From assembly GCF_057098645.1 (NCBI RefSeq), contig NZ_CM169472.1: DNA of 64,000 nt. One strand, written 5' to 3'. The translations under genes were made by a program, and so were the position numbers. The notes beneath the pieces are model-generated. The model was not told where the DNA came from and ran no database searches. It saw only the letters and a list, made by a program, of their open reading frames with translations. Shown here piece after piece: positions 11,342-64,000 of the stretch (its first letter is position 1; each line of letters starts with the position of its first letter).

Positions 11342-12073
11342 CTATTTCCGACACGGTGGCGGCGCATAGCCATTGTTATCTGCCGGAAAGGCTTGTCCAG
11401 AGCACGGTGGCAGCGCGTTTTGCGCCTGGCCTTGTAATTCAAAGGCGGCAAAGCCTATTACACCGGTATTACGCACATCGCCTTGCGCCGAATTGGCTGC
11501 GTAGGAATCAGCAACGTTGGCGAACTGAAAAGCCGCTTCGGTATGTTTATCTTTGCGGAATCCTTTAATCGCTAACGAATCTCCGGCATTCACAATATAG
11601 CCGTTGTTATTCAGCGAACCTTGCTTGCCGTTCAGCACATCCAGGCCATCAACCGTAGCAACGATCTCGTAGTTGGTGTTACGACTGTAATTACGGACAT
11701 ATAATTGATAATTCATTCCGACTCTGGCATGGACAATATAGCGTGGTTCATTATTGGATGAATCATAAACACGCGTAATAGGTAGAGAATTAAAATTACC
11801 ATCGCGAATAGCATATTCCAGTTCGTTAATACGAATGCTATAAACGCGGTCGTAGCCGGAAGGAACATTAGTCGAATAACTAATAACGATCATCTCCGCC
11901 GGATCGCGCCAGGCTCGCTCAGCAGATACGCCCTGAACCGTTGAGTGCACATCCCCACCCCAGGCGGTGCCGACATTGCCCGATGCACTGCTATTATACT
12001 GCGCATTACTGGAACAACCGGCCAGCAGCACGATTAATGCCACCAACGCGCTACGTACTTTCCATTTTTTCAT
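11342..12073 (-). CDS. Predicted lipoprotein of unknown function (accessory gene between speB and speA)
   Basis: 243-aa ORF with signal peptide and LLAGCSS lipobox; Asn/Ser/Tyr-rich; no family recognised. Confidence 0.6.
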   Translation of the reverse strand: MKKWKVRSALVALIVLLAGCSSNAQYNSSASGNVGTAWGGDVHSTVQGVSAERAWRDPAEMIVISYSTNVPSGYDRVYSIRINELEYAIRDGNFNSLPITRVYDSSNNEPRYIVHARVGMNYQLYVRNYSRNTNYEIVATVDGLDVLNGKQGSLNNNGYIVNAGDSLAIKGFRKDKHTEAAFQFANVADSYAANSAQGDVRNTGVIGFAAFELQGQAQNALPPCSGQAFPADNNGYAPPPCRK

Positions 12074-49796: not shown

Positions 49797-49850
49797 TGAA
49801 CCGCCCCGGGAATCCTGGAGACTAAACTTCCTGAGAAAGAGGTAAACAGG

Positions 49851-50177
49851 ATGACTAAAAATACTCGTTTTTCCCCTGAAGTCCGTCAACGGGCAGTCCG
49901 TATGGTTCTGGAAAGTCAGGGCGAATATGACTCACAATGGGCGACAATTTGTTCCATTGCTCCAAAGATTGGCTGTACGCCGGAGACTCTGCGTGTCTGG
50001 GTTCGCCAGCATGAGCGGGATACCGGGGGCGGTGATGGAGGGCTCACCACCGCTGAACGTCAGCGTCTGAAAGAGCTGGAGCGTGAAAATCGTGAACTGC
50101 GCCGCAGTAACGATATCCTTCGCCAGGCTTCCGCTTATTTTGCGAAGGCGGAGTTCGACCGCCTCTGGAAAAAATGA
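49851..50177 (+). CDS. IS3-family transposase OrfA
   Basis: 108 aa, [35 protein letters not shown]... Confidence 0.85.
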
Positions 50178-51064
50178 TGCCACTGCTGGATAAGCTGCGT
50201 GAGCAGTACGGGGTCGGACCGCTATGCAGCGAACTGCATATTGCCCCGTCAACGTATTACCACTGTCAGCAACAGCGACATCATCCGGATAAACGCAGTG
50301 CCCGTGCGCAGCGCGATGACTGGCTGAAGAAAGAGATACAGCGCGTATACGATGAAAATCACAAGGTATACGGTGTGCGTAAAGTCTGGCGTCAGTTGTT
50401 ACGGGAAGGTATCAGAGTGGCCAGATGCACTGTGGCACGTCTCATGGCGGTTATGGGACTTGCCGGTGTTCTCCGGGGTAAAAAGGTCCGTACGACCATC
50501 AGCCGGAAAGCCGTTGCCGCAGGCGACCGCGTAAACCGTCAGTTCGTGGCAGAACGACCTGACCAGCTGTGGGTGGCTGATTTTACTTACGTCAGCACAT
50601 GGCAGGGCTTCGTCTATGTGGCGTTCATCATTGATGTGTTTGCCGGATACATTGTGGGGTGGCGGGTCTCATCGTCCATGGAGACGACATTCGTGCTGGA
50701 TGCACTGGAGCAGGCGTTATGGGCCCGTCGACCGTCCGGCACGGTCCATCACAGTGATAAAGGTTCTCAGTATGTATCGCTGGCCTACACACAGCGGCTT
50801 AAGGAAGCCGGATTACTGGCATCAACAGGAAGTACAGGCGACTCGTATGACAACGCGATGGCGGAGAGCATCAATGGTCTTTACAAAGCGGAGGTAATAC
50901 ACCGTAAGAGCTGGAAAAACCGTGCAGAAGTGGAACTGGCCACACTCACGTGGGTGGACTGGTATAACAATCGACGATTGCTGGAAAGGCTGGGCCATAC
51001 TCCTCCGGCAGAAGCAGAAAAAGCTTATTATGCTTCCATCGGAAACGATGATCTGGCAGCCTGA
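50174..51064 (+). CDS. IS3-family transposase OrfB
   Basis: 296 aa, DDE domain. Confidence 0.85.
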
Positions 51065-51106
51065 GTTCACAGATAAAACACTCTCCAGGAAACCCGGGGC
51101 GGTTCA

Positions 51107-52391
51107 TTTTTTCCTGACGCTTGCCGAGTCCGGAGAACGAAAAACCGCAGTGGACAAATTATTAATGAAGCCCCTGTACCAGCAGGAGATGCAGTTATAT
51201 TCCAGATACAAAAGTGAACTGGCTGTCTGGAAAAACAAGGAAGAGCTTTTAAAGGCTCAGAAAAAAGCATTGTTGTCAAAACTGAATAAAGAACTCCGCA
51301 AAGGCGCGGATGAGTCAGAAACCCTCAGACAACTGGAAGTACTTCAGAAAAACAGTGCGGAAGAACCTGTGAGGTATAAATTCATTTTTAATGATGCCAC
51401 GACTGCGGCAATTAAGAATCAGCTTTGTGGTAAATGGCGTTCAGTGGGTATTATGTCAGATGAAGCCGGTATTATATTTGATGGATATACCCTGTCTGAG
51501 TTGCCTTTTATTAACAAAATGTGGGATGGCTCTGTATTGTCTGTGGACAGAAAGAATGAACCCGAACAGATGATTGAAAATGCCAGAATGACGTTATCCC
51601 TCATGGTGCAACCAGGTCTTTTTGACCGATATATGGAGCGAAAAGGTTCTGTTGCCAGGGACAGTGGTTTTCTTGCCCGTTGTCTTATCAGTAAACCTGC
51701 AACCACGCAGGGGAAACGCTTTATTAACGGAGCTGTGATTCCGGGAGGATCATTAACGGCATTTCATGAACGATTAATGGAACTGGCCAGAGGCAGTATT
51801 GAAAAATCCAGTGAGGATGAACGGTATTGTCTGCATTTTTCGCCTGAAGCGCAAAAAATATTTATTGAGCACTATAATGTTCTGGAGCAGGATTTATCCC
51901 CTTCCGGACCCTTAAGCCCGTTTCGGGGACATGTTTCAAAAAAAACAGAAAACATTGCAAGAATTGCAGCGTTATTTCAGTATTTCAGCTATGGTGAAGG
52001 GAAAATCTCTGCCGATATCATGACGTCTGCTGTCGTAATAAGTTCGTGGTACACAGATGAATATAAAAAATTATTTGCGTTACCTGATGAATCTGAACTG
52101 CAGCAGAAGGACGCCGAGGAGCTGTTCGACTGGCTCATTGAGGAGTGCCGCGGAGAATGCCCGCCCCGTGTCAGGAAAAATTATATTCTCCAGTGTGGCC
52201 CGGGCTGGTTCAGAAACAGGAAAAAACTGAACGCATTGCTGAACATTCTTGAATCTCAGTTCAGGCTTTCTGTCGTGCCGGAAGGAAAAACCATGTATGT
52301 TCTGCTTCCCCAGATAGCCAGTTTAAAGTTGTCTGATGTCTCTGGTATTTTTACCTCGGGTTATCACTACAATAAGCTGAGAGCGAAGTAA
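51107..52391 (+). pseudogene. DUF3987/YfjI-like protein (P4-like island gene), 5'-truncated by the IS insertion
   Basis: The long ORF 50922-52391 begins inside the IS and has no start of its own downstream of the IS end; roughly 428 codons resemble the YfjI/DUF3987 family as I recall it. Confidence 0.5.
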
Positions 52392-52450
52392 CCGGTGAGC
52401 AGTTTTTCTCCATTATGCTTCAGACTTAGATGATTGATTATTATGGGGAT

Positions 52451-52490
52451 TTCATCACCGATATTCAGATGTATGAATATCGGTGATGAA
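52451..52490. promoter_or_regulatory. Perfect 17-bp inverted repeat with 6-bp spacer (operator- or terminator-like)
   Basis: ttcatcaccgatattca-gatgta-tgaatatcggtgatgaa, read directly from the sequence, between the DUF3987 remnant and the convergent hypothetical gene. Confidence 0.5.
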
Positions 52491-52712
52491 CTAAAGCTCA
52501 GGAGCTGCGTGGTGGTGATGAATCAACAGGCATATAACTGATACCCGCCGGTCAGAAGTTCCAGCCTGCGACTTTCCTGTCTGCGTGCCCGCAGTCCGGC
52601 GTTCAGGTGCAGCGTGTGACAGAACGCACGGAGAGCGAAACGGCAGGCAGACAGGCCGTTCAGTCAGCCCTGGCACCCTGCCCGGATACCAGCTTCCCTG
52701 AAACAACTGGCA

Positions 52713-53321
52713 TCAGGTGCGCTTATCGTCAACCGTTGTGCGGTATGCCAGGAGCACGTACTGATCCATCAGATCCGTCAGTGCTGCGCTCTGCTTCTGA
52801 CGGTTGATGATCCATTCCTCCAGCTCTTTTTCTGATTTCCGTTTCAGATTCTCCGTCCAGTCGTCAAGGCAGTTTCCGGTCATTAAATCAAGCCAGCAAA
52901 GCCAGACCAGTTTGAGGCGCAACTCCGTGCCACCAAACTGACGGAAGAGGCTGATCAGTTTATTTGCCAGCGAACGCTGCCTCAGACGTTCACATTCAGA
53001 CAGGAGAATGCCTTCCAGCATCGGATGATGAACCAGCAGATGTTCACTGGTGCATAAATTCACTATCAGATCATCATCCAGGGGCGGCGTGGTCCGTTTG
53101 TCCGGACCATAAATCAGCCGGTGCAGACTCTGGGGTACGATGGCAATCTCCGGTTTTTCACCATTGAATGACACCCACCCGGGCGTCAGATTATGGAAGT
53201 AGTAGATATTCGGATGACACACGCCCCAGGATACGGCGTGCCGGGTGAAGCCGGTCAGCCATTTCTGGTAGCTTTCGTGGAGCAGCTCGTAACGGGTCTG
53301 ATACTGTGGTTTCATTTTCAT
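52713..53321 (-). CDS. Hypothetical protein (P4-like island), downstream of the alpA-like gene
   Basis: ORF 52713-53462; probable start at MKMKPQYQTRYELL (ATG 53321, preceded by a GAGGA Shine-Dalgarno); no family recognised. Confidence 0.5.
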   Translation of the reverse strand: MKMKPQYQTRYELLHESYQKWLTGFTRHAVSWGVCHPNIYYFHNLTPGWVSFNGEKPEIAIVPQSLHRLIYGPDKRTTPPLDDDLIVNLCTSEHLLVHHPMLEGILLSECERLRQRSLANKLISLFRQFGGTELRLKLVWLCWLDLMTGNCLDDWTENLKRKSEKELEEWIINRQKQSAALTDLMDQYVLLAYRTTVDDKRT

Positions 53322-53401
53322 ATTCCTCACGGGGGATAACAGGCAGCAGAACGCCGCCGGCAGGCCGGAGACTGCGTCTGCTGCAGATGAACGGTTAAGA
53401 A

Positions 53402-53608
53402 TTACGGACGGGACTGTGCAATACGCGCCTGCAGCCAGGCTTCCACTTCGCTTTTCAGCCATCGGGAGCTGCGGCCCATTTTGATGGGCGCAGGAAAGTC
53501 ACCATCCTTGATGAGTTTGTAAAACCACTTATCGGTCAGGCCGGTCAGTTGAGTGATAAATGCCATGTCGACCATCTGGTCATCCATCAGTGAAACTGGG
53601 GTGATCAT
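53402..53608 (-). CDS. AlpA-family phage/island transcriptional regulator (excisionase-like HTH)
   Basis: ...MAFITQLTGLTDKWFYKLIKDGDFPAPIKMGRSSRWLKSEVEAWL... matches the AlpA/Phage_AlpA pattern; exact start ambiguous among several in-frame ATGs. Confidence 0.7.
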   Translation of the reverse strand: MITPVSLMDDQMVDMAFITQLTGLTDKWFYKLIKDGDFPAPIKMGRSSRWLKSEVEAWLQARIAQSRP

Positions 53609-54255
53609 GAGAATGTTCCTCCGGATGTTGTTAAACCAGCCGGTGTGGTCATGAAAACAACGCACCACCTTCACCGGCATAACAACCGGGGAGAAACGTA
53701 AAAAATAATCGGGAATGTGACCGCCAGGAGATAAACGGGGAGGTTACGGTGGCTGAGCCGTACCGGTATGCCGGGTGGTTGTTACGAAACGATGCTTCCG
53801 CACGCGCGCGCGATAAAGAAGGGATGATTTTCGTGAGGAAGAGGGGAAAACTGGCGTTCTGATAATTGCAGAGTTATTTACGGGGCGGTTACGATGGGGC
53901 AGACCGTGTCCGGTGGGCAGGCGACAGGTATCACCGATGGGATAAGACTGTCTGATTGGTATTATAAATATATAAGAGAGAGCAAACACATGAGATCAAA
54001 TACATGAGTTCATATATGTGAAATAAACACGGTGAGTGTGATCAGTGGGCATGTGCAAAATGGCATCTGAATCGATCGCAGTTTGGCATTCGAATCGATC
54101 ATGATTTGGCATCCATCTCCGATCACAGTTTGGCATCACAATCGATCACGATTTGGCATGCTTCCGATCATTGATTGGCATCCTGCCAGTCACTCCGGGA
54201 ATTAACTCTTTTCACCACAGTCTCCATTGCCGTGTTTAAACCAGTGGAGACGTCA

Positions 54256-55821
54256 ATGTCCAGAAAGAGAAAATCCAGGAGCACTATGGAAACCTGTTTT
54301 AAGATCCTTCAGCTCAAGTTCGACAAGAAGCTGACTAACCGTTGTATCGGACTGACGTTACACATCAGCGCCTCAACCGTTTTTGAGGTTCTTGCCCGCT
54401 TCAAAGCCTCTTCTCTGTCATGGCCATTACCTGCTGATATATCCCATGACACGCTGGAGAAACTCATTTTTCCGCCCAAAGACACCTTTGCATCAGAGCT
54501 TGTAATGCCTGACATGTTGTACTTCGATACGGAAATGAGAAAACCAGGTGTGACGCGGCAACTGTTGTGGATGGAATACAAGGCACAGGCGGGTAACAAA
54601 GCGATGGGATACTCGCACTTCTGCCGTTGCTACCGGGAGTGGAAAAAAACGCGACGTCTCTCCATGCGCCAGGAGCATCGTGCCGGCGAAAAGCTTTTTA
54701 TCGACTTCTGTGGTCCTACGGTTCCTGTTATTAATCCGGACACCGGTGAGATACGCCGCGTGGCAATCTTCGTGGCCGTAATGGGGGCGTCCAACTATAC
54801 CTACGTTGAAGCGTGCGAAGGTCAGGACATGATGTCATGGTTAAATGCCCACAGCCGTTGCCTGACCTTCCTGGGCGGCGTACCGAAGCTGCTCATCCCC
54901 GATAACCTCAGAAGCGCAGTGAAAAAGGCCGATCGATATGAGCCTGTCATCAACGACAGTTATCAGGCACTGGCTGAGCACTATGGCACGGTTATCATCC
55001 CGGCCCGACCACGCAAACCTAAAGATAAACCAAAAGCAGAAAACGGCGTCCTCATCGTTGAACGATGGCTTCTTGCCCGCATCCGTAATGAAACCTTCCA
55101 CACGCTCAGGGCGCTGAATGCGCGCCTTAGGGAGTTACTGACAGACATGAATAACCGGCCAATGAAGGGGTACGGCAATCAAACCCGTGCAGAACGCTTC
55201 CGCATACTGGATGCGCCAGCACTCTCTCCGCTGCCTCTGGCACCTTATGAATACACGGAATACAAAGCTGTGAAGGTTGGCCCTGACTACCACGTTGAAT
55301 ATGCCCGTCACTGGTACTCCGTTCCACACGAACTGGTCGGTCAGCGTCTGTCACTGAAGGCGGGGCAGTCGGTGGTACAGCTCTGGCACAAGGGGCAGTG
55401 TGTGGCGCAACATCCGCGCAGCACACATGAATATAAACACACAACCAATCCGCTTCACATGCCAGAGCGCCACCGGCAGCACGGGACATGGACACCGGAA
55501 CGCCTGATCGAGCAGGGAAAACGTACGGGCCCGTCCACAGGCCGGGTGGTTGAATCCATGCTGAAGGCAAAACCCCATCCGGAACTGGCTTATCGTGCAG
55601 TTCTGGGGCTGCTGGCACTTCAGAAAAAATACGGCCCGGAACGGCTGGAAAAGGCCTGTTACGTTGCCCTGCACTATAACGCCCCTGACAGACGCTTTAT
55701 CGACAATCTGCTGCGTCACCATCGGGAGAACCTGGAGCTTCCATTATCCCGCCAGGGCGAACAACATCCGGCATATGCTTCAGAGCATGAAAACCTGCGT
55801 GGTCCGGGCTACTACCACTGA
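54256..55821 (+). CDS. istA: IS21-family transposase IstA
   Basis: 521 aa from MSRKRKSRSTMETCFKILQLKFDKKL...; HTH plus DDE domain. Confidence 0.8.
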   Translation: MSRKRKSRSTMETCFKILQLKFDKKLTNRCIGLTLHISASTVFEVLARFKASSLSWPLPADISHDTLEKLIFPPKDTFASELVMPDMLYFDTEMRKPGVTRQLLWMEYKAQAGNKAMGYSHFCRCYREWKKTRRLSMRQEHRAGEKLFIDFCGPTVPVINPDTGEIRRVAIFVAVMGASNYTYVEACEGQDMMSWLNAHSRCLTFLGGVPKLLIPDNLRSAVKKADRYEPVINDSYQALAEHYGTVIIPARPRKPKDKPKAENGVLIVERWLLARIRNETFHTLRALNARLRELLTDMNNRPMKGYGNQTRAERFRILDAPALSPLPLAPYEYTEYKAVKVGPDYHVEYARHWYSVPHELVGQRLSLKAGQSVVQLWHKGQCVAQHPRSTHEYKHTTNPLHMPERHRQHGTWTPERLIEQGKRTGPSTGRVVESMLKAKPHPELAYRAVLGLLALQKKYGPERLEKACYVALHYNAPDRRFIDNLLRHHRENLELPLSRQGEQHPAYASEHENLRGPGYYH

Positions 55822-55837
55822 CAGAAGGAACAACAGT

Positions 55838-56593
55838 ATGAGTGATAACCTGTTAAACAAACTGACCCAACTGAAACTCCCGGCGATGGCCGGGAGCCTG
55901 ATACGGCAGCGGGAAACGCCTCAGACCTACGACGAACTGTCGTTCGAGGAAAGGCTGACGCTGCTGGTTGATGACGAGCTTCTGAGCAGGGAAAACAGCC
56001 GTGTGGCACGGTTGAGAAAAAATGCCGGCCTGAAATACCAGGCAACACCGGAAGGGCTGCGCTATCCGGCCTCAAGAGGTCTGCGGGCTGAACAGATGAG
56101 AGAACTGCTGAACGGCCACTACATAACCCACAGGAAAAACCTGCTGATAACCGGTCCGACAGGATGTGGCAAGAGCTGGATAGCCAATGCGCTGGGCGAA
56201 CAGGCATGTCGACAGAAACACAGCGTCCGGTACTGTAGAACCGGGCGATTACTGGAACAACTGGCTCAGGGACGTGTTGATGGCAGCTGGCTGAAATATC
56301 TGAAACAGTTGCAAAAAATACAGGTTCTAATCCTGGACGATCTGGGGCTGGAACAGTTAAGTAACGCCCAGTGTAATGACCTTCTGGAGCTCATAGAGGA
56401 TCGTTACGGACAAAGCAGCACGATAGTGGTAAGCCAGTTCCCGGTAGATAAATGGCATGGTCTGATGGAGAACCCAACAACAGCAGATGCCATCCTGGAC
56501 AGACTGGTACATAACTCACACCGAGTGGTCCTTCAGGGAGAGTCACTGAGGAAAAATCCCCCGGTAGTGGAAAGCAGCGAAAAAACGCGTTAA
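55838..56593 (+). CDS. istB: IS21-family helper ATPase IstB
   Basis: MSDNLLNKLTQLKLPAMAG...; Walker A GPTGCGKS; AAA+ IstB-like. Confidence 0.85.
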   Translation: MSDNLLNKLTQLKLPAMAGSLIRQRETPQTYDELSFEERLTLLVDDELLSRENSRVARLRKNAGLKYQATPEGLRYPASRGLRAEQMRELLNGHYITHRKNLLITGPTGCGKSWIANALGEQACRQKHSVRYCRTGRLLEQLAQGRVDGSWLKYLKQLQKIQVLILDDLGLEQLSNAQCNDLLELIEDRYGQSSTIVVSQFPVDKWHGLMENPTTADAILDRLVHNSHRVVLQGESLRKNPPVVESSEKTR

Positions 56594-57568
56594 AAAGCGG
56601 TAGAAAAAGTTAAGTTCCCGGTTGATCGAATGGATGCGAATCGCTGATCGGACTTCGATGCCAATCCGTGATCGAATAGAGCGGAATACGCAGGCATGAT
56701 GAGAACGCAGTAGCAACAGACTGCGCTATCCCTGATAGCTGGCGTATAACCTGCGTATATAAAACGTACCAGCAACGCACGTGAACAGAGTGCATTAAGC
56801 ATCCGTCGTTGACACCGACCTGGTGAGTGACAGTCTGAGAGACCGGTTAAGTGGTGGTACGGGAGTAATGAGTTTGGGGAGGGTACCAGAATGTCAGTCT
56901 GGTACGGTATGCTGACAGTATCACGTTAATTGCAGCATAAAGTGATGAGAGGCTAATGGAAGTTAAAACCAGAGCAGTTCCGTCGTTGTTCATCCCGGGA
57001 GACACTGGAAAAAGTGATTTCCCACACGCGTTATAAGCTTACTCTAGCGGAGATGGAAGCCTTCAACTCTGCGGTCGATCACCGACTGGCAGAACTGACA
57101 ATGAACAAGCTTTACGATCGTGTTCCCGCTTCAGTCTGGAAATATGTCATCTGAGCGTTCGGTAATCACAACTGCATCGCGCCAGGTGTTATCCGCTTTG
57201 TGATTCTTATTGGCTCTTCTCAGGTTATTAAAAGCTGAATATGTTCCTGTTGTCGGGAACCAGGATAATACCGGGAACGTTAAGCGGTATAGCGACAACA
57301 AAGAATTCGAAATCAAAAGGGAATGGTGCCGGAGGCGTGGGCGGTAATGGGCTGATTTTCAGGTATTACCGGCTTACAGCGTGTGGTTGATATTGAGGGG
57401 CTGTGAGTTTCACGTATTTGTCAGAAACCCAGACGAGTTTTCCTGTATGAGACGAAATAAGGCAGCGGCAATACATGGAAAAATTTAATATGCTATGAAG
57501 GAGAACCTGTCGGTTACGCTTAATATAACCGGTACACTGTCAGCTCAGGGGATACATGAACCGTTATC

Positions 57569-57772
57569 TCACCAGCTACACAGTATATACACACTGACGC
57601 TGACAGTAGTCAGCAGGACCACAATAATCAGTGCCAGCAGTATGGTAACGATACGGTCTGTATTCCGGTAATAGCCGAAGGGGTCGACAGAACCACAATA
57701 CGGGCAACACACAGTATTATGAGTAATCGCGTTTCCACAGTCCCAGCACTTCTTTTTGCGTATCACCATCAC
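57569..57772 (-). CDS. Small zinc-ribbon membrane protein (hypothetical)
   Basis: 67 aa; CWDCG...CPYCG zinc ribbon followed by one hydrophobic helix (IVTILLALIIVVLLTTVSVSVYIL). Confidence 0.4.
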   Translation of the reverse strand: MMVIRKKKCWDCGNAITHNTVCCPYCGSVDPFGYYRNTDRIVTILLALIIVVLLTTVSVSVYILCSW

Positions 57773-57973
57773 TCCCTCCTCACAGCCTTACCCGTAACCG
57801 GTTTTTTACATTAAAAAAACAACGCTGAAAATTCAACCGTCAGTCCGGAGACGACCGTTCGGGTTATCTCAGAGTGCCTGAGATATTGCCTGGTTGGAGA
57901 TCACTTCAGGGACTCTGCGCATTTTTTACGGCGTGGTTAATCCGTATGAACGAAACCATACGGAGATTTAACC

Positions 57974-58543
57974 ATGACCTACAAATACAACCCCTTCTGG
58001 CAGCAACGTATTCGTGAGACGGTGCGGCACGCACTGGATGTTCATCCCCGCCTGACGGCATTGCGGGTTGATCTGCGTCTCCCGGATGTACCGGCAGCAA
58101 CGGACGCGGCTGTGATATCCCGCTTCATCAATGCCCTGAAAGCCCGAATCGACGCTTACCAGAAACGTAAGCATCGGGAAGGTAAACGCGTGCATTCCTC
58201 GACCCTGCATTACGCCTGGGCCCGGGAGTTCGGGGAGCTTAAAGGCAAAAAACACTATCACCTGCTGCTGCTGGTCAACCGGGATACCTGGTGTCGTGCC
58301 GGCGATTACCGCGCTCCGGGGTCACTGGCCGGAATGATTAAACAGGCCTGGTGCAGTGCCCTGGGGGTGGATGCCGGATGTTATGCCACGCTGGTGCATT
58401 TTCCGGTCAGGCCGGCGGTGTGGCTGGAACGCGATGATGAAACCGGCTTTCAGCAGGTACTGGAACGTGCTGGCTATCTGGCGAAGGAGCATACCAAAGC
58501 TCGCGGCACCGGTGAGCGCAACTTTGGCTGTAGCCGGAGTTGA
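57974..58543 (+). CDS. YagK/YfjJ (inovirus Gp2-like) family protein
   Basis: 189 aa; N-terminal MTYKYNPFWQQRIRETVRHALDVHPRLTALRVDLRLP resembles the YagK/YfjJ family found in CP4-type islands (from memory); Shine-Dalgarno present. Confidence 0.5.
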   Translation: MTYKYNPFWQQRIRETVRHALDVHPRLTALRVDLRLPDVPAATDAAVISRFINALKARIDAYQKRKHREGKRVHSSTLHYAWAREFGELKGKKHYHLLLLVNRDTWCRAGDYRAPGSLAGMIKQAWCSALGVDAGCYATLVHFPVRPAVWLERDDETGFQQVLERAGYLAKEHTKARGTGERNFGCSRS

Positions 58544-58795
58544 ACACGACAGACGCGCCAATACCCGGCAAACCAAAAGTATGGGTTGTTGTCTGGTGGC
58601 AACGATGTATCCACTCGCCCACTGACTGTTTTTTACGTCAGTGTTCCATTGTGTGACAACCACAATGCTGTAACAGCAACCAGCCTGCTTTACCCAAACT
58701 CCAGTCCAGATTTTAACTGAACCGCCATTCACACCTGACCACGCTGCCCGTACCGGGACGGCTGTTGCCTGCGTGTCGTCTGGCGGCTGAGGAAT

Positions 58796-59203
58796 ATGAC
58801 TATGTACGCAAAATCCTTTCTCGCACTTGATGGCAACGGGCGTCTGACGGGTGCCCGTACCGCACAGACTGCACCTTACGATCGCTACACTTGCCACCTT
58901 TGCGGCAGTGCACTCAGATACCACCCGCAATACGACACTGAGCGTCCCTGGTTTGAACACACTGACGACGGGCTGACAGCGCACGGTCAGCAGTGTCCTT
59001 ATGTCAGACCGGAACGCAGGGAGATACGCTTGATTAAGCGTCTGCAGCAATTCGTACCGGATGCCTTACCCGTGGTGCGTAAAGCCAGCTGGCACTGCAG
59101 ACAATGTCACCACGATTATTATGGGGAGCAGTACTGCACAAACTGCCAGACCGGAGGATTCAGTATTCCCCGGACAACTCGGGAGGAAATATGCGAATTC
59201 TGA
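58796..59203 (+). CDS. Cys-rich putative zinc-binding protein, paralog A
   Basis: 135 aa; CHLCG...PWFEH and WHCRQCHHDYYGEQYCTNCQTGG motifs; GAGGA Shine-Dalgarno. Confidence 0.55.
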   Translation: MTMYAKSFLALDGNGRLTGARTAQTAPYDRYTCHLCGSALRYHPQYDTERPWFEHTDDGLTAHGQQCPYVRPERREIRLIKRLQQFVPDALPVVRKASWHCRQCHHDYYGEQYCTNCQTGGFSIPRTTREEICEF

Positions 59204-59625
59204 ACTGTTATATGGCGAATGACAGCAAGGGGCATTTTGTTACGGCGAAAGAAGCAGCGAAGCACAACCGCCGGGACGTTTTGTGCTGTGTGTCCTGTGG
59301 ATGCCCGTTAACACTTCAGCGGGGCAATGACGGACAACAACCGTGGTTTGAACATGACCAGATGACTGTCGCTGAGAAAATCCTGCTGCGATGCACCTGG
59401 CTTGACCCGGCAGAGAAAGAGGCCCGTCGTTTGCATCTGCAGGGTATGACAGTTCTGGATTATACGGTGAAGGTGAGAAAGTGGTTTTGTGTGATGTGTG
59501 ACGAAGATTATGAAGGAGAAAAGTGCTGCCCGCGTTGTGGTACCGGGGTATACAGCAGGGCGTGGGGGCGGCAGGATGTGCCGTCGGAAGATGCCAGGGC
59601 TGATAATCCGTTACAGAGGTTGTAA
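59191..59625 (+). CDS. Cys-rich putative zinc-binding protein, paralog B (translationally coupled to A)
   Basis: 144 aa from ATG 59191 (GGGAGG Shine-Dalgarno); shares CxxCG...PWFEH and W.C..C.(D/H)DY.GE..C..C.TG motifs with paralog A; 13-nt overlap with A. Confidence 0.55.
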   Translation: MRILNCYMANDSKGHFVTAKEAAKHNRRDVLCCVSCGCPLTLQRGNDGQQPWFEHDQMTVAEKILLRCTWLDPAEKEARRLHLQGMTVLDYTVKVRKWFCVMCDEDYEGEKCCPRCGTGVYSRAWGRQDVPSEDARADNPLQRL

Positions 59626-61012
59626 TGGTTGCCTCTGGCGCAGTTTGCGGTGATGCCGTTCCCGGGAATGGATTGCCAGTGCGGGGACTGTGGAGCTTAA
59701 TTCCGGTGTTGGTGGCCTTTCCGTTGATTTTGAGCCAACAGCCCTCCTGTGACTGACAGGCTGCCTCGTCATTCCATACGTATCTTCAGGTGAACAGATG
59801 CATGTCTGAGCGTACTCACGCAGCCGGCCCGGCAACCGCGGTGGTACTACGCTGGCTGCGAGAAAATACAGAAAGCACCAGAATACGCTCTCCTGTTGCT
59901 GATCAATCAGGATCTCATGCACCTACCGGGATCTAGGGCTAGAACTGATGAAACCGATTCGCACCTGGCTGAGTTAATGCTACAGGCCAGGGCATCACTA
60001 CCCCCTGACGAGCACTGTACTGTGGTATGCAGTTACAGGGGGCGTGTGCAGCCACACCTGAAAGCAGTGAGTCGTTCACGGCATTCAAAAACACGTGCCT
60101 TTCGTTCGCCGTTCCTGTGATGGCCGGCATCATTTGCTAAGCCGTTACCGACGTTATTCCCTCCGGGACACGCCTCTGGTTGAGGCTTTGCCCGGAGCAA
60201 TCGAATGAAAATAAGTTAAGTCACCGAAAGGGAGGATGTAGTCAACCGGGGGAACAGTAATAAGCCGTCGTGCTTTTATCGTACAAGTGTGTTGCGTTTT
60301 GCACCGAAAATACGATAGAGGTCGTTTATGGATTCCGCAGGGAGTGCTGATTATTATTCACTGGCAGCAGACAGCGATGTGTGTGCAGGCATTCAGGGGG
60401 ATGTTGTCAGCAGAAGGGTGCGTATAGCAGATTGTTGTTATACATGGCGTATGAAGTATTACCAGTCATGCGGAGTAGTGTGGTGAGGGGCTGTATGAGA
60501 AATCGCCACCTTCTTGTCAGAGAGGGAACGCTACCATGAAAGTCAAAAGCGATAACGCAGACCGGTACGATCGGTAGGTAAAACTGTAGCGGTGTGCTGC
60601 CGCCGAGGTCAGAATAATCTGCGCGTTTTTACGCCAGCGCCACCGACGAACAGCAGGAGATTGAGGGGAATTTGGCGGCGATAAAGACGTAGAAGAGAAA
60701 AACGGGCAATTTGCCGCATGCCCACAGAATCAGTGAGATCGTTAGCGACAGCAAAATGATCGGCAGCCAGCGGCGGCCTGCAATATCGGGATGAAGGAGA
60801 TCCTACGATATCGATGCTGCACCTGATATGTACGATCAGTAAATAGAGTACGAAACAGCAAACACGACGATAATAACGCTGGCAGCGGTGCCTGTCAGGC
60901 AAACGCCCACACGCAATAAAATAAATCAACCATCGCAGGGCCGTGATCATCCGCATACACCGCTGATGACGCGTCTAAAAACGCGTCAATATGACTTCCC
61001 CGGAACATTACC

Positions 61013-62254
61013 TCATTTCAGGGTATGGAGAATTTTTAACATCGAGTTATCTATGGTCTGTTTGACTTTTTCGTAATAGATCGGTTCAGATAATGACGAA
61101 TCCCAGGTATGAATATCGTTCTTATTAAAAGGAATGCATTTCATGGCTACTGCCTTTAACTGTTTCCCTTTTTGCTCATACTCATTGATATCATTAATGG
61201 TAAATTTCAAACTCTCTTTTCTTGCTTCTGTTATTTCAGTTGGGCATACCAGCTTTATATCTCCTAAGGTAAATGTACTGACCCCGGTGATGAAAAATCT
61301 CTCGGGGATTTCTGTATAGTGCCGAGTATTCCAGATTAAGCCATTAAACATACTATGAGAATGAGTTTTATTTTCGATATAATACTGATGCGTTCTCCAG
61401 TCACTAATGCCTGAGAGACTCATTACCATATTAATGATCATATTTGGGATAGGGCGATACCACATACTGAATACAGTAATTACAACTGGTATGCATATTA
61501 AAACAACTATGAATCCAGTGAATTTATCACCATTTCTGCGCTCATTAAGATGTATGGCACCAGGCAGAATGCCAATAGTAACAATAGCTGCTGTTAAGGC
61601 AAGGAGCATTAGCATTTCAACCAAATCACTTGTCTCCTCACTAAAATCAAGTTGGGTAAGCAGAAATAACATAGGTAATATTTGAACGATCCCGGGAGTC
61701 ATAAATTGCAAGGGTAAAAAACATAACAATCCTGGTTTTCTTGGTAATTTCTCATAGTTATCAGATTTATGCCAACTAAATCTCTTTGTTTTAAATAGAT
61801 TAAAATAGGATACAAAATAACTAAAAGCAAGCATCAATACAAAACCGGTGATACTTATGGAATAACCATTCCATCCATAAAGATAGTAAATATAGTAGCC
61901 AACAATTATACTACAGCATATAAACAAGCTATTTAGATAACAAACAGTGGAAATTCGATGTGGTATGCTTGGATAATTTTTGAAATTATCTTCATGTAAT
62001 GTGTAAATGAGGATTAGAATAAAAGAGGAAATGAAAATTACTAAGCTAAACCCAGAAAACGATACTATTATAAAAACAAAAATGATACCTATGGCTGAAC
62101 TGAGGCTTACAGTATCAAAGAAAATATCTAATCTATCTATGTTTGACAGATAGAACCATATAACAGCCATTGTGCATCCAGTAATAAATGTAGATGAGGT
62201 TATTACTGAAATAATGAATTTTTTATTCAACAGCTTTATGACAGATTTATTCAT
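61013..62254 (-). CDS. AT-rich polytopic membrane protein with C-terminal soluble domain (unknown function)
   Basis: 413 aa; multiple predicted transmembrane helices in the N-terminal roughly 270 aa, hydrophilic C-terminus; codon usage and base composition visibly AT-rich compared with flanking DNA. Confidence 0.6.
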   Translation of the reverse strand: MNKSVIKLLNKKFIISVITSSTFITGCTMAVIWFYLSNIDRLDIFFDTVSLSSAIGIIFVFIIVSFSGFSLVIFISSFILILIYTLHEDNFKNYPSIPHRISTVCYLNSLFICCSIIVGYYIYYLYGWNGYSISITGFVLMLAFSYFVSYFNLFKTKRFSWHKSDNYEKLPRKPGLLCFLPLQFMTPGIVQILPMLFLLTQLDFSEETSDLVEMLMLLALTAAIVTIGILPGAIHLNERRNGDKFTGFIVVLICIPVVITVFSMWYRPIPNMIINMVMSLSGISDWRTHQYYIENKTHSHSMFNGLIWNTRHYTEIPERFFITGVSTFTLGDIKLVCPTEITEARKESLKFTINDINEYEQKGKQLKAVAMKCIPFNKNDIHTWDSSLSEPIYYEKVKQTIDNSMLKILHTLK

Positions 62255-62884
62255 AATCCGAATTCCATACCTGATAAAATTCGTATTGTAGTGAGGACCG
62301 ATTTTTTGAGCAACTTATAACCATCGCTTAAAGCTACTTGCTACCATACATGCCGTTATCCCGAACCATAAAGCGCTTGGCAGTAACACCAACATCACAG
62401 ACAGATACTGCGGTTGCGCCAAATAAAAGAATGGCGGATAAGGTCGGCGGATTGCAACGTGATGCTGTGCTGTAGGATGACTTCTGCGGTCTCGTCCAGC
62501 GCCAGCCACTCCTGGCGGATTTTGTGTGGGGGCATGGTGTGTTCCTTTTTGTGTTGTTGGTTGCGTATAGTGCTTGTTGATGATGAAAACCGGTGTGAGA
62601 TATTTTTGCCAAAACAACTAACACTGATCAGTGTAGGTAACGAGCTTTTCAGACATAATATGGTGATGATTTACACTGGAAAAACAGGACGTAACACTGA
62701 ATAGCTCTGGAGACGATTTGCTTGAAGTGGCGTGCTATTTGTTGAAAGAAGAATTTCTGATGATACCTTATTTTAAAGGAGGCTAAAGGGAGAGGAGAGA
62801 GCCCTGTTGAAATCAACAGGACTTAATAGCTCCTCTCCGAAGGGCAAGGAGATCACCCGTGCGCCTGGTTAGGTGAAGAAGTAC

Positions 62885-64000
62885 TCAGCGTGGTTGCAGA
62901 CAGTTATCTTCTTTCCAGCCGTACAGCCACTCCATGCCGCGATAAAACTCTGCCTGCGATTTCCCTTTCCACAGCAGGTTACGAACCTGGCGTTCTACTC
63001 CCGCGGCGTGATAAACCCGTCCCATCTCACGGGTCGACCAGACAATACGCGCGGTGCGCGGAATACGTACCGACTCATACAGCGCAAAGGCTTGCGCCGC
63101 ATCACCCTCACACTGCGCCAGCGCCTTACCCAGCGTTACCGCGTCTTCCAGCGCCATACAGGCACCTTGCGCCATATATTGCGCCACTGGATGGGCTGCA
63201 TCGCCCACCAGCGTAATGCGGTTAGTGCCCCATTTCGCGACTGGTTCACGGTCGGCAGTTGACCAGCGTCGCCATGAAGTCGGTTTATCCAGCATCTGGC
63301 GCGGACGCGGGTGAATCCCCTCAAAGTAAGAGAGCACTTCCTCTTTACTGCCATCCTTCACGCCCCACTCTTCCTGCTGGCGGCTGTGGAATGTCACCAC
63401 CAGGTTATACTGCGTGCCGCCGCGCAAAGGGTAATGCACCAGGTGACAGTGCGGCCCCGCCCACAGTACCGGTGCGTTAATGCGCAAATCTTCCGGCATA
63501 TCGGCACAATCGATAACCGCACGGTAGACAACATGTCCGGTGACACGCGGCGCATCGCCCAATAAGCTCTGGCGCACCACTGACTTCACGCCGTCACAGC
63601 CAATCAGAATATCGCCGGTCCAGCTATTGCCGCGATCGTCAAACACGGTGACATCGTCTTCCGTCTCGCGAATATCCACGACGTTGGTGGAGGTGTGATA
63701 TTCCACGTCCGGATGCGTCAGTACCGCTTCCCACACCGAGGCGTGAATATCAACCCGGTGGATCACCGCGTAAGGACCGCCGAAATGGTCACGAAAGGCC
63801 TGCCCGGTTTCAATGCGCACCACTTCTTCGGCGTTCACCGCATCCATCATGGTAATGTGATCGGTAAACACCGCGCGCTGGCGGGCAACTTCGCCGACGC
63901 CGAGGCTGTCCAGCGCCGAAAACGCATTTGGCCCCAACTGGATGCCCGCGCCAATCTCACCGATCTCATGCGCCTTTTCCAGCAGCACCACTTTGATCCC
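62885..64000 (-). CDS. FAD-dependent aromatic-ring monooxygenase (salicylate/3-hydroxybenzoate hydroxylase-like), N-terminus beyond window end
   Basis: ORF runs to the window edge; ...VLLEKAHEIGEIGAGIQLGPNAFSALDSLGV... and C-terminal GDAAHPVAQYMAQGACMALEDA motifs typical of group A flavin monooxygenases. Confidence 0.7.
   Translation of the reverse strand, partial: GIKVVLLEKAHEIGEIGAGIQLGPNAFSALDSLGVGEVARQRAVFTDHITMMDAVNAEEVVRIETGQAFRDHFGGPYAVIHRVDIHASVWEAVLTHPDVEYHTSTNVVDIRETEDDVTVFDDRGNSWTGDILIGCDGVKSVVRQSLLGDAPRVTGHVVYRAVIDCADMPEDLRINAPVLWAGPHCHLVHYPLRGGTQYNLVVTFHSRQQEEWGVKDGSKEEVLSYFEGIHPRPRQMLDKPTSWRRWSTADREPVAKWGTNRITLVGDAAHPVAQYMAQGACMALEDAVTLGKALAQCEGDAAQAFALYESVRIPRTARIVWSTREMGRVYHAAGVERQVRNLLWKGKSQAEFYRGMEWLYGWKEDNCLQPR

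What the first reader, a model, noticed from the sequence alone, without database searches (positions are those of the whole stretch)
56700..62300. Uncharacterised cargo cluster in a P4-like tRNA-Phe island: candidate novel (possibly anti-phage) module
Downstream of the IS21-family element the island carries a compact set of genes with no housekeeping function I can recognise: a 67-aa zinc-ribbon membrane peptide, a YagK/YfjJ-like protein, two overlapping paralogous Cys-rich proteins, a roughly 1.4-kb stretch without convincing ORFs, and an AT-rich 413-aa polytopic membrane protein. P4-like integrative elements are known to carry variable defence cargo next to AlpA/DUF3987-type genes, so this is where an undescribed system is most likely to sit. 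The functional link between these genes is inference only.
Basis: partly seen in the sequence, partly recalled or inferred. Interest (0 to 1): 0.65.

Follow-up and report, generated by a model that had tools for sequence, protein, structure and literature searches.

The report
Island backbone plus one orphan membrane gene
The supposed "cargo cluster" is two unrelated things lying side by side in an E. coli tRNA-Phe island: a conserved maintenance module found in most E. coli genomes, and a stray piece of a conjugative element that carries one uncharacterised membrane-protein gene, which is the only real candidate for a new defence or exclusion function.

Summary

**Backbone, window 56693-59797.** This stretch holds a truncated Hha-like ORF, a 66-aa zinc-ribbon/TM peptide, a YagK/YfjJ HUH Rep-like protein and two DUF7828+Zn_ribbon_11 paralogs. 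It is the conserved backbone of CP4-57-like integrative islands, not cargo. At least 80% of it is present in 3195 of 5426 complete E. coli genomes, at a median of 2 places per genome. It is under purifying selection, and the same order occurs in Edwardsiella.

**Cargo slot, from about 59798.** It contains:
- a frameshifted gene remnant;
- a 2.4-kb fragment of an ICE (60425-62831) carrying the intact, AT-rich 413-aa membrane gene;
- the gentisate operon.

**No co-occurrence.** The membrane gene is in only 91 genomes. The whole block is in 62 near-identical genomes. Each part also occurs without the others.

**The membrane protein.** It has no match in PADLOC, NCBIfam, Pfam, PHROGs or the PDB. 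It belongs to an uncharacterised family found on mobile elements: ICEs, islands and 1270 plasmid records, mostly IncFIB in the examples read. About half of the contexts I examined lie beside type I R-M, McrBC or Mrr genes. It is a weak candidate for a single-gene exclusion or defence determinant.

Overall the finding is ordinary island mosaicism with one modest lead.

The parts
54054..56692 (+). IS21-family insertion sequence (IstA, IstB). It is the boundary of the finding, not part of it. It is inserted in the AlpA-Hha intergenic region of the backbone.
   Evidence: NCBIfam IS21 transposase E 1e-84 and IstB E 2e-76. It is absent from otherwise identical islands. The 6-bp duplication GGCATG lies at 54048-54053 and 56693-56698.
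57005..57154 (+). Hha/YmoA-like ORF of 49 aa, truncated at the N-terminus (backbone).
   Evidence: It matches positions 24-71 of the 72-position Hha model (E 3e-22, score 78.7, below the cut-off of 90). Upstream in-frame codons still read Hha-like but lack a start codon. The Edwardsiella copy of the module has a full 70-aa Hha.
57569..57769 (-). 66-aa zinc-ribbon plus C-terminal transmembrane peptide (backbone), divergent from the Rep-like gene.
   Evidence: Pfam Zn_ribbon_3 E 1e-3. It is annotated in the same position in all related islands read. The Edwardsiella ortholog is 54% identical and keeps the Cys pairs and the hydrophobic tail.
57974..58543 (+). YagK/YfjJ ('inovirus Gp2 family') HUH Rep-like protein of 189 aa (backbone).
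   Evidence: Pfam YagK_YfjJ_C E 5e-46 and REP_ORF2-G2P E 3e-5. It is 36% identical to K-12 YfjJ (E 2e-36). The HUH (HYH/HAH) and YxxK motifs are kept in relatives at 21-22% identity. omega is 0.28-0.33.
58802..59203 (+). Zinc-ribbon protein 1 of 133 aa, DUF7828 + Zn_ribbon_11 (backbone).
   Evidence: Pfam E 6e-31 and 3e-9. omega is 0.15-0.23.
59191..59625 (+). Zinc-ribbon protein 2 of 144 aa, a paralog of the first, with a 13-nt overlap suggesting translational coupling (backbone).
   Evidence: Pfam E 5e-30 and 2e-18. It is 33% identical to ZnR1. omega is 0.07.
59626..59797 (.). Conserved non-coding tail of the backbone. The homology break that opens the cargo slot lies at its end.
   Evidence: The first 172 nt after ZnR2 match in about 2000 genomes, after which similarity stops. 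In other islands IS66 or ISL3 elements or other cargo follow.
59781..60039 (+). Frameshifted, truncated remnant of a roughly 170-aa island gene (pseudogene).
   Evidence: tblastn matches in two different frames to the AH19B041 172-aa protein and to a related fragment (E 3e-13 and 2e-5). That protein is only weakly YagK/YfjJ-like (E 0.003) and has no Pfam hit.
60425..62831 (.). ICE-derived segment that travels as a unit: the membrane gene plus flanking remnants. GC is 40%.
   Evidence: The left edge comes from AST198. The right edge is where O157:H7 gentisate loci start to match. The remnants are described and the GC values.
60886..61011 (.). Small dispersed repeat of about 110-125 bp just 3' of the membrane gene, containing a perfect 9-bp hairpin.
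   Evidence: Copies at 75-81% identity occur in 827 E. coli genomes, up to 12 per genome.
61013..62254 (-). 413-aa polytopic membrane protein of an uncharacterised family: about 7-8 TM helices plus a conserved beta-rich C-terminal domain with two invariant Cys.
   Evidence: Homologs of 413 aa at 37-91% identity cover the full length. The AlphaFold model has pLDDT 76.5. omega is 0.34 overall and 0.07 in the C-terminal domain. There is no Pfam, NCBIfam, PADLOC or PHROG hit.
62321..62428 (-). Remnant of the last 36 codons of a DtrJ-like ICE gene.
   Evidence: tblastn 53% identity, E 2e-8, to the DtrJ-like gene that directly precedes the membrane-protein homolog in an Enterobacter ICE.
62425..62535 (-). 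First 37 codons of an ICE gene. RefSeq annotates it as a 46-aa hypothetical protein.
   Evidence: 78% identity to the N-terminus of a 296-aa protein in the KW21 ICE.
62697..62747 (+). First 17 codons of an HNH endonuclease gene (remnant).
   Evidence: 82% identity to the N-terminus of the KW21 HNH endonuclease, E 8e-4.
62885..63991 (-). 3-hydroxybenzoate 6-monooxygenase, the first gene of the gentisate (mhb) operon. This is separate metabolic cargo.
   Evidence: RefSeq annotation of identical loci. The gene matches in roughly 650 genomes, of which only 85 have the membrane gene next to it.

Best explanation
The interval is a junction inside a decayed pheV genomic island. It is not a functional unit.

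**Left part (56693-59797): island backbone.** This is the conserved maintenance and regulation module of a very common family of Enterobacterial tRNA-associated integrative islands, the family of K-12 CP4-57. It consists of an Hha-type H-NS co-regulator (truncated here), a small zinc-ribbon membrane peptide, an HUH-type rolling-circle Rep/relaxase-like protein (YagK/YfjJ), and two translationally coupled zinc-ribbon paralogs.

I infer that after AlpA-controlled excision the Rep-like protein nicks the circular island to start rolling-circle replication or transfer. I also infer that the zinc-ribbon proteins are its nucleic-acid-binding accessory or specificity factors.

In this particular island the system is probably inactive. 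YfjI has lost its 5' end to an IS3 insertion, an IS21 element splits the regulatory region, and Hha lacks its N-terminus.

**Right part (from about 59798): cargo slot.** It holds a dead gene remnant, a 2.4-kb fragment torn from an ICEclc/PFGI-1-type conjugative element, and the gentisate operon.

The ICE fragment carries one intact gene for a polytopic inner-membrane protein. My inferred topology is N-terminus inside, with a conserved Cys-pair domain probably in the periplasm. The protein acts alone. My best guess for its role is an envelope-level block to incoming foreign DNA, that is, entry exclusion or superinfection exclusion (about 0.2-0.25).

**Shown:** gene families, conservation, distribution, mosaic boundaries and selection. 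**Inferred:** nicking and replication, the accessory role of the zinc ribbons, the topology, and the exclusion function.
For: **Distribution.**
- The backbone block is in 3195 of 5426 genomes at >=80% coverage, median 2 places and up to 6 places per genome.
- The membrane gene is in 91 genomes.
- The whole interval is in 62 genomes, the listed ones at 99.9% identity.
- The membrane gene plus gentisate gene is in 85 of roughly 650 genomes that match the gentisate gene.

**Conserved order.** The order AlpA / Hha / 66 aa / Gp2 / ZnR / ZnR followed by different cargo is seen in E. coli and Edwardsiella. The Gp2-like + ZnR adjacency is kept in a Salmonella island whose Gp2-like protein is only 22% identical.

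**Gene families.**
- HUH and YxxK motifs are invariant. Pfam finds YagK_YfjJ_C and REP_ORF2-G2P.
- Purifying selection acts on the Gp2, ZnR1 and ZnR2 genes (omega 0.07-0.33).
- A published class of Pseudomonas islands also has integrase, AlpA and inovirus Gp2-like proteins as likely core functions, with defence systems in most elements (PMC12595487).

**Decay.** IS21 has a target duplication. YfjI is truncated. Hha is truncated. A frameshifted remnant lies in the gap.

**ICE origin of the membrane gene.** DtrJ-like, 296-aa-protein and HNH remnants flank it. These match the Enterobacter ICE, where a 44%-identical homolog follows the DtrJ-like gene, and the KW21 ICE.

**The membrane gene acts alone.** No neighbour is conserved across about 15 contexts.

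**The membrane gene is functional.** omega is 0.34 overall and 0.07 in the C-terminal domain.
Against: - No experiment shows that YagK/YfjJ proteins nick DNA or that these islands replicate.
- The zinc-ribbon model is of low confidence (pLDDT 65) and has no fold match. No domain fusions were found that would hint at a function.
- The Edwardsiella module is a close relative (Gp2 89% identical), so it is not independent evidence of deep conservation.
- The exclusion or defence role of the membrane protein rests only on neighbourhood. R-M, McrBC or Mrr genes lie within 10 kb in about 7 of 15 contexts, with no formal background control.
- It has no homolog in 50,697 phage records and no PADLOC hit.
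- Its plasmid relatives sit beside RepFIB and an integrase rather than beside defence genes.
Confidence: 0.75

Rival explanations
1. The 67-aa peptide, YagK/YfjJ protein, two zinc-ribbon proteins and the membrane protein together form one undescribed multi-gene anti-phage system carried as island cargo.
For: - The genes are compact and lie in an island type whose cargo slot often holds defence systems: AbpAB and RnlAB after yfjJ in K-12 and a type I R-M after ZnR in Salmonella.
- None of the genes has a known function.
Against: - The genes do not co-occur: 3195 genomes have the block, 91 have the membrane gene, and 62 have both together.
- The membrane gene is found without the block, and the block is followed by unrelated cargo elsewhere.
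- A 1.4-kb decayed spacer with a pseudogene and an ICE junction separates the two parts.
- They are on opposite strands.
- There are no PADLOC hits.
Confidence: 0.03
2. The 413-aa membrane protein alone is a new single-gene defence or exclusion determinant. It is an inner-membrane protein whose periplasmic C-terminal domain blocks phage DNA injection or conjugative entry, or which triggers membrane-level abortive infection.
For: - It is always a lone gene, yet it is repeatedly inserted beside type I R-M, McrBC or Mrr genes: Serratia, Brenneria, Dickeya and the P0130 locus.
- In Photorhabdus it lies between SIR2-like/DUF87 genes and RT+AAA_15 genes.
- In the P0167 locus it lies directly after a P4-type integrase.
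- It is found inside an ICE and on 1270 plasmid records, 966 of them conjugative (hhalign E 4e-41).
- It is AT-rich. The membrane part evolves fast (omega 0.60) while the C-terminal domain is constrained (omega 0.07).
- The two invariant Cys residues and the positive-inside pattern fit a periplasmic domain.
Against: - The evidence is neighbourhood only, from about 15 contexts and with no control set.
- Several contexts are plainly metabolic.
- There are no phage-borne homologs and no similarity to any PADLOC model, including for 10 distant members.
- The topology is inferred, not measured.
Confidence: 0.22
3. The backbone (AlpA, YfjI, Gp2-like protein, zinc ribbons) belongs to a phage-satellite-like or phage-transduced element. 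On this reading the Rep-like and zinc-ribbon proteins serve helper-dependent replication or interference, so the module affects phages indirectly.
For: - The integrase + AlpA + DUF3987 primase-like + Rep-like gene set resembles satellite and IME replication modules.
- Pseudomonas islands with integrase, AlpA and Gp2-like core genes are moved by a jumbo phage (PMC12595487).
- The Gp2-like protein matches a PHROG family (E 1e-38).
Against: - The near-identical annotated island shows no capsid-redirecting or packaging genes (psu, sid, delta, terS-like).
- The zinc-ribbon proteins have no PHROG hit.
- In this window the element is disrupted by IS3 and IS21.
Confidence: 0.12
4. The membrane protein is an envelope-modifying enzyme, for example a Wzy-like polymerase or another glycan or lipid transferase, brought in as metabolic or surface cargo rather than as a defence gene.
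For: - It is AT-rich, polytopic, about 400 aa and lies in variable regions, as many O-antigen genes do.
- One distant family member gives a weak hit to an oligosaccharide repeat unit polymerase (TIGR04370, E 0.0018, score 17 against a cut-off of 40).
- Invariant D285, H289 and K378 in the C-terminal domain could be catalytic.
Against: - Only 1 of 10 distant members gives that hit, and it is far below the cut-off.
- No glycosyltransferase or polysaccharide genes lie next to it in any context read.
Confidence: 0.08

Closest known systems
Cryptic prophage/island CP4-57 of E. coli K-12 (intA-yfjH-alpA-yfjI-yfjJ backbone followed by AbpAB and RnlAB cargo)
   Same: - A tRNA/tmRNA-associated P4-type integrase, AlpA, YfjI (DUF3987) and a YagK/YfjJ protein. 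K-12 YfjJ is 36% identical (E 2e-36).
- Variable cargo starts just after the backbone.
   Different: - Gene order and orientation differ: here AlpA is divergent from YfjI.
- The window's backbone has in addition the Hha-like ORF, the 66-aa peptide and the two zinc-ribbon genes. None of these is annotated in the K-12 region read.
- The cargo here is an ICE fragment plus the gentisate operon, not AbpAB/RnlAB.
P4-like phage satellites with defence hotspots (Rousset et al. 2022, PMC9122126, listed)
   Same: A P4-family integrase at a tRNA gene, an AlpA-type regulator, a primase-like DUF3987 gene, and a variable region that can hold defence genes.
   Different: The island inventory shows no psu, delta, sid or other capsid-related genes, so it is not a P4-like satellite in the SatelliteFinder sense described in PMC10121019. 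The hotspot studied for P4 is a different locus from this one (own knowledge).
HUH rolling-circle replication initiators and relaxases (inovirus gpII-type, Pfam REP_ORF2-G2P)
   Same: The HUH motif (HYH) and a YxxK tyrosine motif are conserved. Pfam gives a REP_ORF2-G2P match at E 3e-5.
   Different: At 189 aa it is much smaller than f1 gpII (own knowledge). No origin or nick site was identified; the inverted-repeat scan was uninformative. Activity is untested.
tmRNA-associated genomic islands of Pseudomonas moved by a jumbo phage (PMC12595487)
   Same: Integrase, AlpA and an inovirus Gp2-like protein are proposed as core functions. Cargo is variable and most elements carry recognisable defence systems.
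   Different: A different genus and integration site. The zinc-ribbon pair and Hha are not mentioned in the passages read, and no sequence comparison was made.
Entry-exclusion and superinfection-exclusion inner-membrane proteins of plasmids, ICEs and prophages (e.g. F TraS, SXT Eex, P22 SieA; own knowledge, not tested)
   Same: This is a 'works like' comparison only. It applies to a lone, AT-rich, fast-evolving polytopic membrane protein encoded on conjugative elements and islands.
   Different: No sequence or fold similarity was found to anything characterised. At 413 aa with a large conserved C-terminal domain it is much larger than TraS or Eex (own knowledge). No phenotype is known.

Membership tests
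P4-like phage satellite | P4-family tyrosine integrase next to a tRNA gene | tested here: met
   tRNA-Phe is at 38585-38660. The integrase ORF at 38858-40120 matches NF007246 at E 5e-74, score 249 against a curated cut-off of 434, a domain-level match.
P4-like phage satellite | AlpA-type regulator and alpha-like primase/helicase (DUF3987) | tested here: met
   The AlpA-like ORF at 53402-53680 matches excisionase/regulator PHROGs (E 9e-10). RefSeq annotates it as an HTH or AlpA family regulator and annotates the neighbouring gene as a YfjI family protein. YfjI is 5'-truncated in the window.
P4-like phage satellite | Capsid-size and helper-exploitation genes (psu, delta, sid) | tested here: not met
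   The full annotated inventory of the near-identical RM13516 island holds only the integrase, the fec operon, IS elements, the backbone genes, the membrane gene and the mhb operon. This was judged from annotation, not from dedicated HMMs.
CP4-57-type integrative island backbone | Integrase + AlpA + YfjI + YagK/YfjJ-family gene, with cargo downstream | tested here: met
   YfjJ versus the window protein is 36% identical, E 2e-36. Gene order and orientation differ.
HUH endonuclease superfamily (RCR Rep/relaxase) | HUH metal-binding motif and catalytic Tyr motif | tested here: met
   HYH (HAH in distant relatives) and YxxK are kept across relatives at 21-89% identity, with H96, Y168 and K171 invariant. 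Pfam REP_ORF2-G2P E 3e-5.
HUH endonuclease superfamily (RCR Rep/relaxase) | Site-specific ssDNA nicking and joining at an origin | not testable with these tools
   No origin was identified. Inverted repeats near the gene are short and unremarkable.
Known anti-phage defence systems (PADLOC-DB 2.0) | Significant match of at least one component to a defence-system model | tested here: not met
   No hits for the five proteins of the finding or for 10 distant relatives of the membrane protein. Only the AlpA-like HTH gives weak hits (mad1 and PDC-M06B, E 4e-4).
Functional gene module (operon-like system) | Co-occurrence of the components across unrelated genomes | tested here: not met
   3195 genomes have the block, 91 have the membrane gene and 62 have both. 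The parts also occur separately. Co-occurrence is met only for the sub-module Gp2-like + ZnR.
Hha/YmoA nucleoid-associated regulators | Full-length protein of about 70 aa, including the N-terminal H-NS-binding helices | tested here: not met
   The 49-aa ORF covers model positions 24-71 only, with score 78.7 below the cut-off of 90. No start codon is available for the upstream Hha-like codons.
DUF7828 + Zn_ribbon_11 proteins (Pfam PF25165, PF11682) | Both domains in a protein of about 130-145 aa | tested here: met
   Among the 120 best-listed relatives, the full-length ones share this architecture and none has an informative fusion.
Entry-exclusion or superinfection-exclusion membrane proteins | Inner-membrane protein encoded on a mobile element | tested here: met
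   AlphaFold predicts membrane helices and the hydropathy profile agrees. The gene is found on an ICE, on plasmids and on islands.
Entry-exclusion or superinfection-exclusion membrane proteins | Blocks entry of phage or conjugative DNA | not testable with these tools
   This needs plating and mating assays.

The most novel reading that the evidence does not exclude
The 413-aa protein founds an undescribed family of single-gene envelope-level exclusion or defence determinants. The family has no Pfam, NCBIfam, PADLOC or PHROG model. It comprises 228 clusters at 50% identity. It is carried by ICEs, tRNA islands, hsd/mrr/mcrBC defence islands and more than a thousand plasmids (IncFIB in the examples read). 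On this reading its conserved periplasmic Cys-pair domain blocks incoming phage or conjugative DNA.
Probability: 0.2. Interest if true: 0.55.

Novelty: new member of a known kind. Interest (0 to 1): 0.25.

Why it matters
**As a cluster it does not matter much.** It is a typical mosaic junction in an E. coli pheV island, found with near-identical sequence in O145:H28, O103 and other strains.

**Two points are useful.**

1. The Hha / 66-aa / YagK-YfjJ / double zinc-ribbon block marks where the conserved backbone of a very common island family ends and its cargo slot begins. That gives a practical anchor for mining cargo, including defence systems, in thousands of Enterobacterial genomes.

   The HUH Rep-like protein plus zinc-ribbon pair is an untested candidate replication or mobilisation module for islands usually treated as inert 'cryptic prophages'.

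2. The membrane protein belongs to a sizeable family restricted to mobile elements, with no annotation anywhere, and with a distant member on more than a thousand (mostly E. coli) plasmid records. A simple expression test would show whether it excludes phages or plasmids.

Tried and rejected
**Searches of the five proteins that gave nothing useful**
- PADLOC, NCBIfam and PHROGs: only generic zinc-ribbon and Gp2 family hits.
- Rfam over 52000-64000: one chance-level miRNA hit.
- Sequence search of the Gp2-like protein and the zinc-ribbon profile against the PDB: nothing below E 0.27.
- Papers mentioning DUF7828, Zn_ribbon_11 or the RefSeq protein accessions: none.

**Structure searches**
- Foldseek against AFDB50: only uncharacterised relatives, plus two entries labelled DUF5671 and DUF2157.

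**Sequence-signal scans**
- Promoter and terminator scan: counts at shuffle level.
- Inverted-repeat scan for a Rep nick site: nothing convincing.
- NCBIfam scan of ten small ORFs, nine in the 1.4-kb gap plus the 46-aa ORF at 62395-62535: no hits.

**Wider survey of the membrane gene**
- The genome-contig scan returned only 6 loci, too few for a statistical test of defence-island enrichment.

**Ideas considered and rejected**
- A lipoprotein signal (ITGC near residue 27) in the membrane protein: rejected because the Cys is not conserved.
- A functional link between the membrane gene and the gentisate operon: rejected because of the GC contrast (33% against 59%), the ICE remnants between them, and the 85 of roughly 650 co-occurrence.
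- Deep conservation of the module in Edwardsiella: downgraded because its Gp2 and ZnR1 are 86-89% identical, which points to recent transfer.

Full report
**Where the window lies.** The window is E. coli DNA. The interval 56700-62300 matches 62 complete E. coli genomes over its full length; the 25 listed are all at 99.9% identity, and most are O145:H28 or O103. The closest genomes place it at pheV: yqgA, then tRNA-Phe, then a P4-type integrase.

The island reads as follows:
- integrase and the fecIRABCDE operon;
- an IS3 element;
- YfjI, which has lost its 5' end to the IS3;
- a gene of about 200 aa (the longest ORF is 249 aa) and an AlpA-like gene;
- an IS21-family element at 54054-56692, with the target duplication GGCATG;
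- the interval of the finding;
- the gentisate (mhb) operon.

- The YagK/YfjJ assignment holds (Pfam E 5e-46).
- The two Cys-rich proteins are true paralogs (33% identity, E 1e-15) with the architecture DUF7828 + Zn_ribbon_11.
- The 66/67-aa ORF has a zinc ribbon and a hydrophobic tail.
- The 413-aa ORF has 33% GC and is predicted to be a polytopic membrane protein.

**Do the genes belong together?** No. I searched the parts separately against 5426 complete E. coli genomes.
- The 66-aa + Gp2 + ZnR1 + ZnR2 stretch is present at >=80% coverage in 3195 genomes. The median is 2 places per genome and the maximum is 6.
- The membrane gene is in 91 genomes.
- The 1.4-kb spacer is complete in 63 genomes. 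Its first 172 nt follow ZnR2 in about 2000 genomes. Its last 588 nt travel with the membrane gene.

In strain AST198 the membrane gene and the gentisate operon sit next to a truncated CbtA gene, with no zinc-ribbon block. In AH19B041 a 95%-identical copy sits in another island without the gentisate operon. The gentisate monooxygenase gene matches in roughly 650 genomes, and only 85 of them have the membrane gene beside it.

**The left part is backbone, not cargo.** In every related island I read, the order is:
- Ag43, a GTPase and YfjI;
- a 200-aa gene and AlpA;
- Hha, the 66-aa gene, Gp2, ZnR1 and ZnR2;
- then IS elements or unrelated cargo.

The cargo seen was fec, a phytase-like esterase, or a T6SS.

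An Edwardsiella tarda copy has the same order and a full-length Hha. It is a close relative (Gp2 89% and ZnR1 86% identical), although its second zinc-ribbon gene is only 35% identical. A Salmonella island whose Gp2-like protein is only 22% identical still has a DUF7828/Zn_ribbon_11 gene right after it, followed by a type I R-M system with an AAA_13 protein. The Gp2-like + zinc-ribbon pairing is therefore the conserved unit.

The Gp2-like protein keeps the HUH motif and a YxxK tyrosine motif in all relatives aligned. The three genes are under purifying selection (omega 0.07-0.33).

K-12 CP4-57 has the related order intA-yfjH-alpA-yfjI-yfjJ, followed directly by the AbpAB and RnlAB defence genes. 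A recent paper on Pseudomonas islands likewise treats integrase, AlpA and an inovirus Gp2-like protein as likely core functions, with variable cargo that often includes defence systems (PMC12595487).

I therefore read 56693-59797 as the island's replication, mobilisation and regulation module. Its proposed mechanism, HUH nicking of the excised circle with the zinc-ribbon proteins as accessory factors, is inference.

**The 'empty' 1.4 kb.**
- 59626-59797 is the conserved tail of the backbone.
- 59781-60039 holds, in two different frames, pieces of a roughly 170-aa protein known intact from another island (E 3e-13 and 2e-5). It is a frameshifted pseudogene.
- None of the nine small ORFs tested in the gap matches NCBIfam.
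- Directly after the stop codon of the membrane gene lies a dispersed repeat of about 110-125 bp, present in 827 genomes.

**The right part is a fragment of a conjugative element.** Between the membrane gene and the gentisate operon I found three remnants:
- the last 36 codons of a DtrJ-like gene;
- the first 37 codons of a 296-aa ICE gene, which RefSeq annotates as a 46-aa hypothetical protein;
- the first 17 codons of an HNH endonuclease gene.

In an Enterobacter ICE, a 44%-identical homolog of the membrane protein sits directly after an intact DtrJ-like gene, inside the T4SS cluster. The other two remnants match an ICE in strain KW21. The segment 60425-62831 (40% GC, against 52% and 59% for its neighbours) is therefore a torn piece of an ICEclc/PFGI-1-type element.

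**The membrane protein.**

*Family and gene start.*
- Homologs of the same length (413 aa, 37-91% identity) occur in E. coli, Salmonella, Serratia, Enterobacter, Leclercia, Brenneria and Dickeya, with a 29%-identical one in Photorhabdus.
- They support the start at 62254 rather than the shorter RefSeq start, because the N-terminus is conserved.
- A profile search finds 228 clusters at 50% identity. The full-length members are about 375-455 aa.

*No annotation or fold match.*
- There is no Pfam, NCBIfam, PADLOC or PHROG match.
- The AlphaFold model (pLDDT 76.5) shows about 8 membrane helices and a beta-rich C-terminal domain.
- It has no meaningful match in the PDB and matches only uncharacterised proteins in AFDB.

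*Selection and topology.*
- The gene is under selection: omega is 0.34 overall, 0.07 in the C-terminal domain and 0.60 in the membrane part.
- Loop charges fit an N-in topology with the C-terminal domain outside, and two Cys residues are invariant. This topology is inferred.

*Genomic contexts.*
- No neighbour is conserved across contexts.
- About 7 of 15 distinct contexts lie within 10 kb of type I R-M, McrBC or Mrr genes.
- One lies between SIR2-like/DUF87 genes and RT/AAA_15 genes, and one lies directly after an integrase.
- Others are metabolic.
- A distant but certain family member (hhalign E 4e-41) is on 1270 plasmid records, 966 of them conjugative. In the two IncFIB plasmids read it lies next to a tyrosine recombinase and a 62-aa ORF, with RepFIB annotated just beyond in one of them.
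- None is found in 50,697 phage records.

*Reading.* This pattern suggests, but does not show, a single-gene exclusion or defence role. I put that at about 0.2.

**Comparison with known systems.**
- The island is not a P4-like satellite, because it has no capsid-related genes.
- It is a CP4-57-type island.
- The Gp2-like protein passes the motif tests for the HUH superfamily, but its activity is untested.
- Nothing in the interval matches a described defence system.

**Verdict.** The finding is an ordinary island mosaic. It leaves one modest lead, the membrane-protein family, and one useful by-product, a marker for the boundary between backbone and cargo in a very common island family.

Noticed in passing
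window 62171-62254 (5' end of the membrane gene): RefSeq annotates most copies as 385 aa, starting at 62170. Homologs down to 37% identity conserve the extra 28 N-terminal residues, with K12, S20, S21 and T25 nearly invariant, so the 413-aa start at 62254 is the likely true start.
   Followed up: partly
window 60886-61011: A dispersed repeat of about 110-125 bp occurs at 75-81% identity in 827 E. coli genomes, up to 12 copies per genome, some of them on plasmids. It contains a perfect 9-bp hairpin (GACGCGTCT...AGACGCGTC). I did not identify the repeat family.
   Followed up: partly
window 49797-51106 and 51104-52391: An IS3-family element has removed about 197 bp from the 5' end of YfjI (DUF3987). 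The long ORF 50922-52391 is therefore an IS-YfjI read-through, not a real gene.
   Followed up: partly
window 57005-57154 and L039 4209-4421: The island's Hha paralog is N-terminally truncated in the E. coli copies (49 aa, model positions 24-71) but full length (70 aa) in the Edwardsiella copy. The upstream E. coli codons still read Hha-like but have no start codon.
   Followed up: yes
L039 6381-6794 compared with window 59191-59625: Between the E. coli and Edwardsiella copies of the module, Gp2 and ZnR1 are 86-89% identical but the second zinc-ribbon gene is only 35% identical. The ZnR2 slot appears to be exchanged between paralog types, possibly as a specificity determinant.
   Followed up: partly
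L036 5941-7110 and L037 6941-8110 (plasmids): A 389-aa distant member of the membrane-protein family matches 1270 plasmid records, 1089 of them Escherichia. In the two IncFIB plasmids read it lies next to a tyrosine recombinase and a 62-aa ORF, with RepFIB annotated just beyond in one of them (L036). It is annotated only as hypothetical.
   Followed up: partly
L029, P0057, P0084: E. coli-identical sequences are deposited under other names: a 'Collinsella sp.' MAG contig with the membrane gene at 99% identity, a 'Veillonella sp.' MAG protein, and a 'Pseudomonas aeruginosa' partial zinc-ribbon protein. These are probably binning or contamination errors.
   Followed up: no
L032 10001-11241 (Mixta sp.): The Mixta copy of the membrane gene (66% identical) is split into two ORFs, so it is probably a pseudogene.
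   Followed up: no
window 38858-48825: The fecIRABCDE ferric-citrate operon lies between the integrase and the backbone here, but downstream of the zinc-ribbon genes in other islands. A fec-like ABC transporter cluster also neighbours the Photorhabdus homolog of the membrane gene. This suggests IS-mediated rearrangement between pheV- and pheU-type islands.
   Followed up: no
L042 (K-12 CP4-57) 7852-11654: In K-12 the genes directly after yfjJ are abpB and abpA (the AbpAB anti-phage system), followed by rnlAB. This is an example of defence cargo at the slot equivalent to window position ~59798 (PMC10732053 listed).
   Followed up: yes
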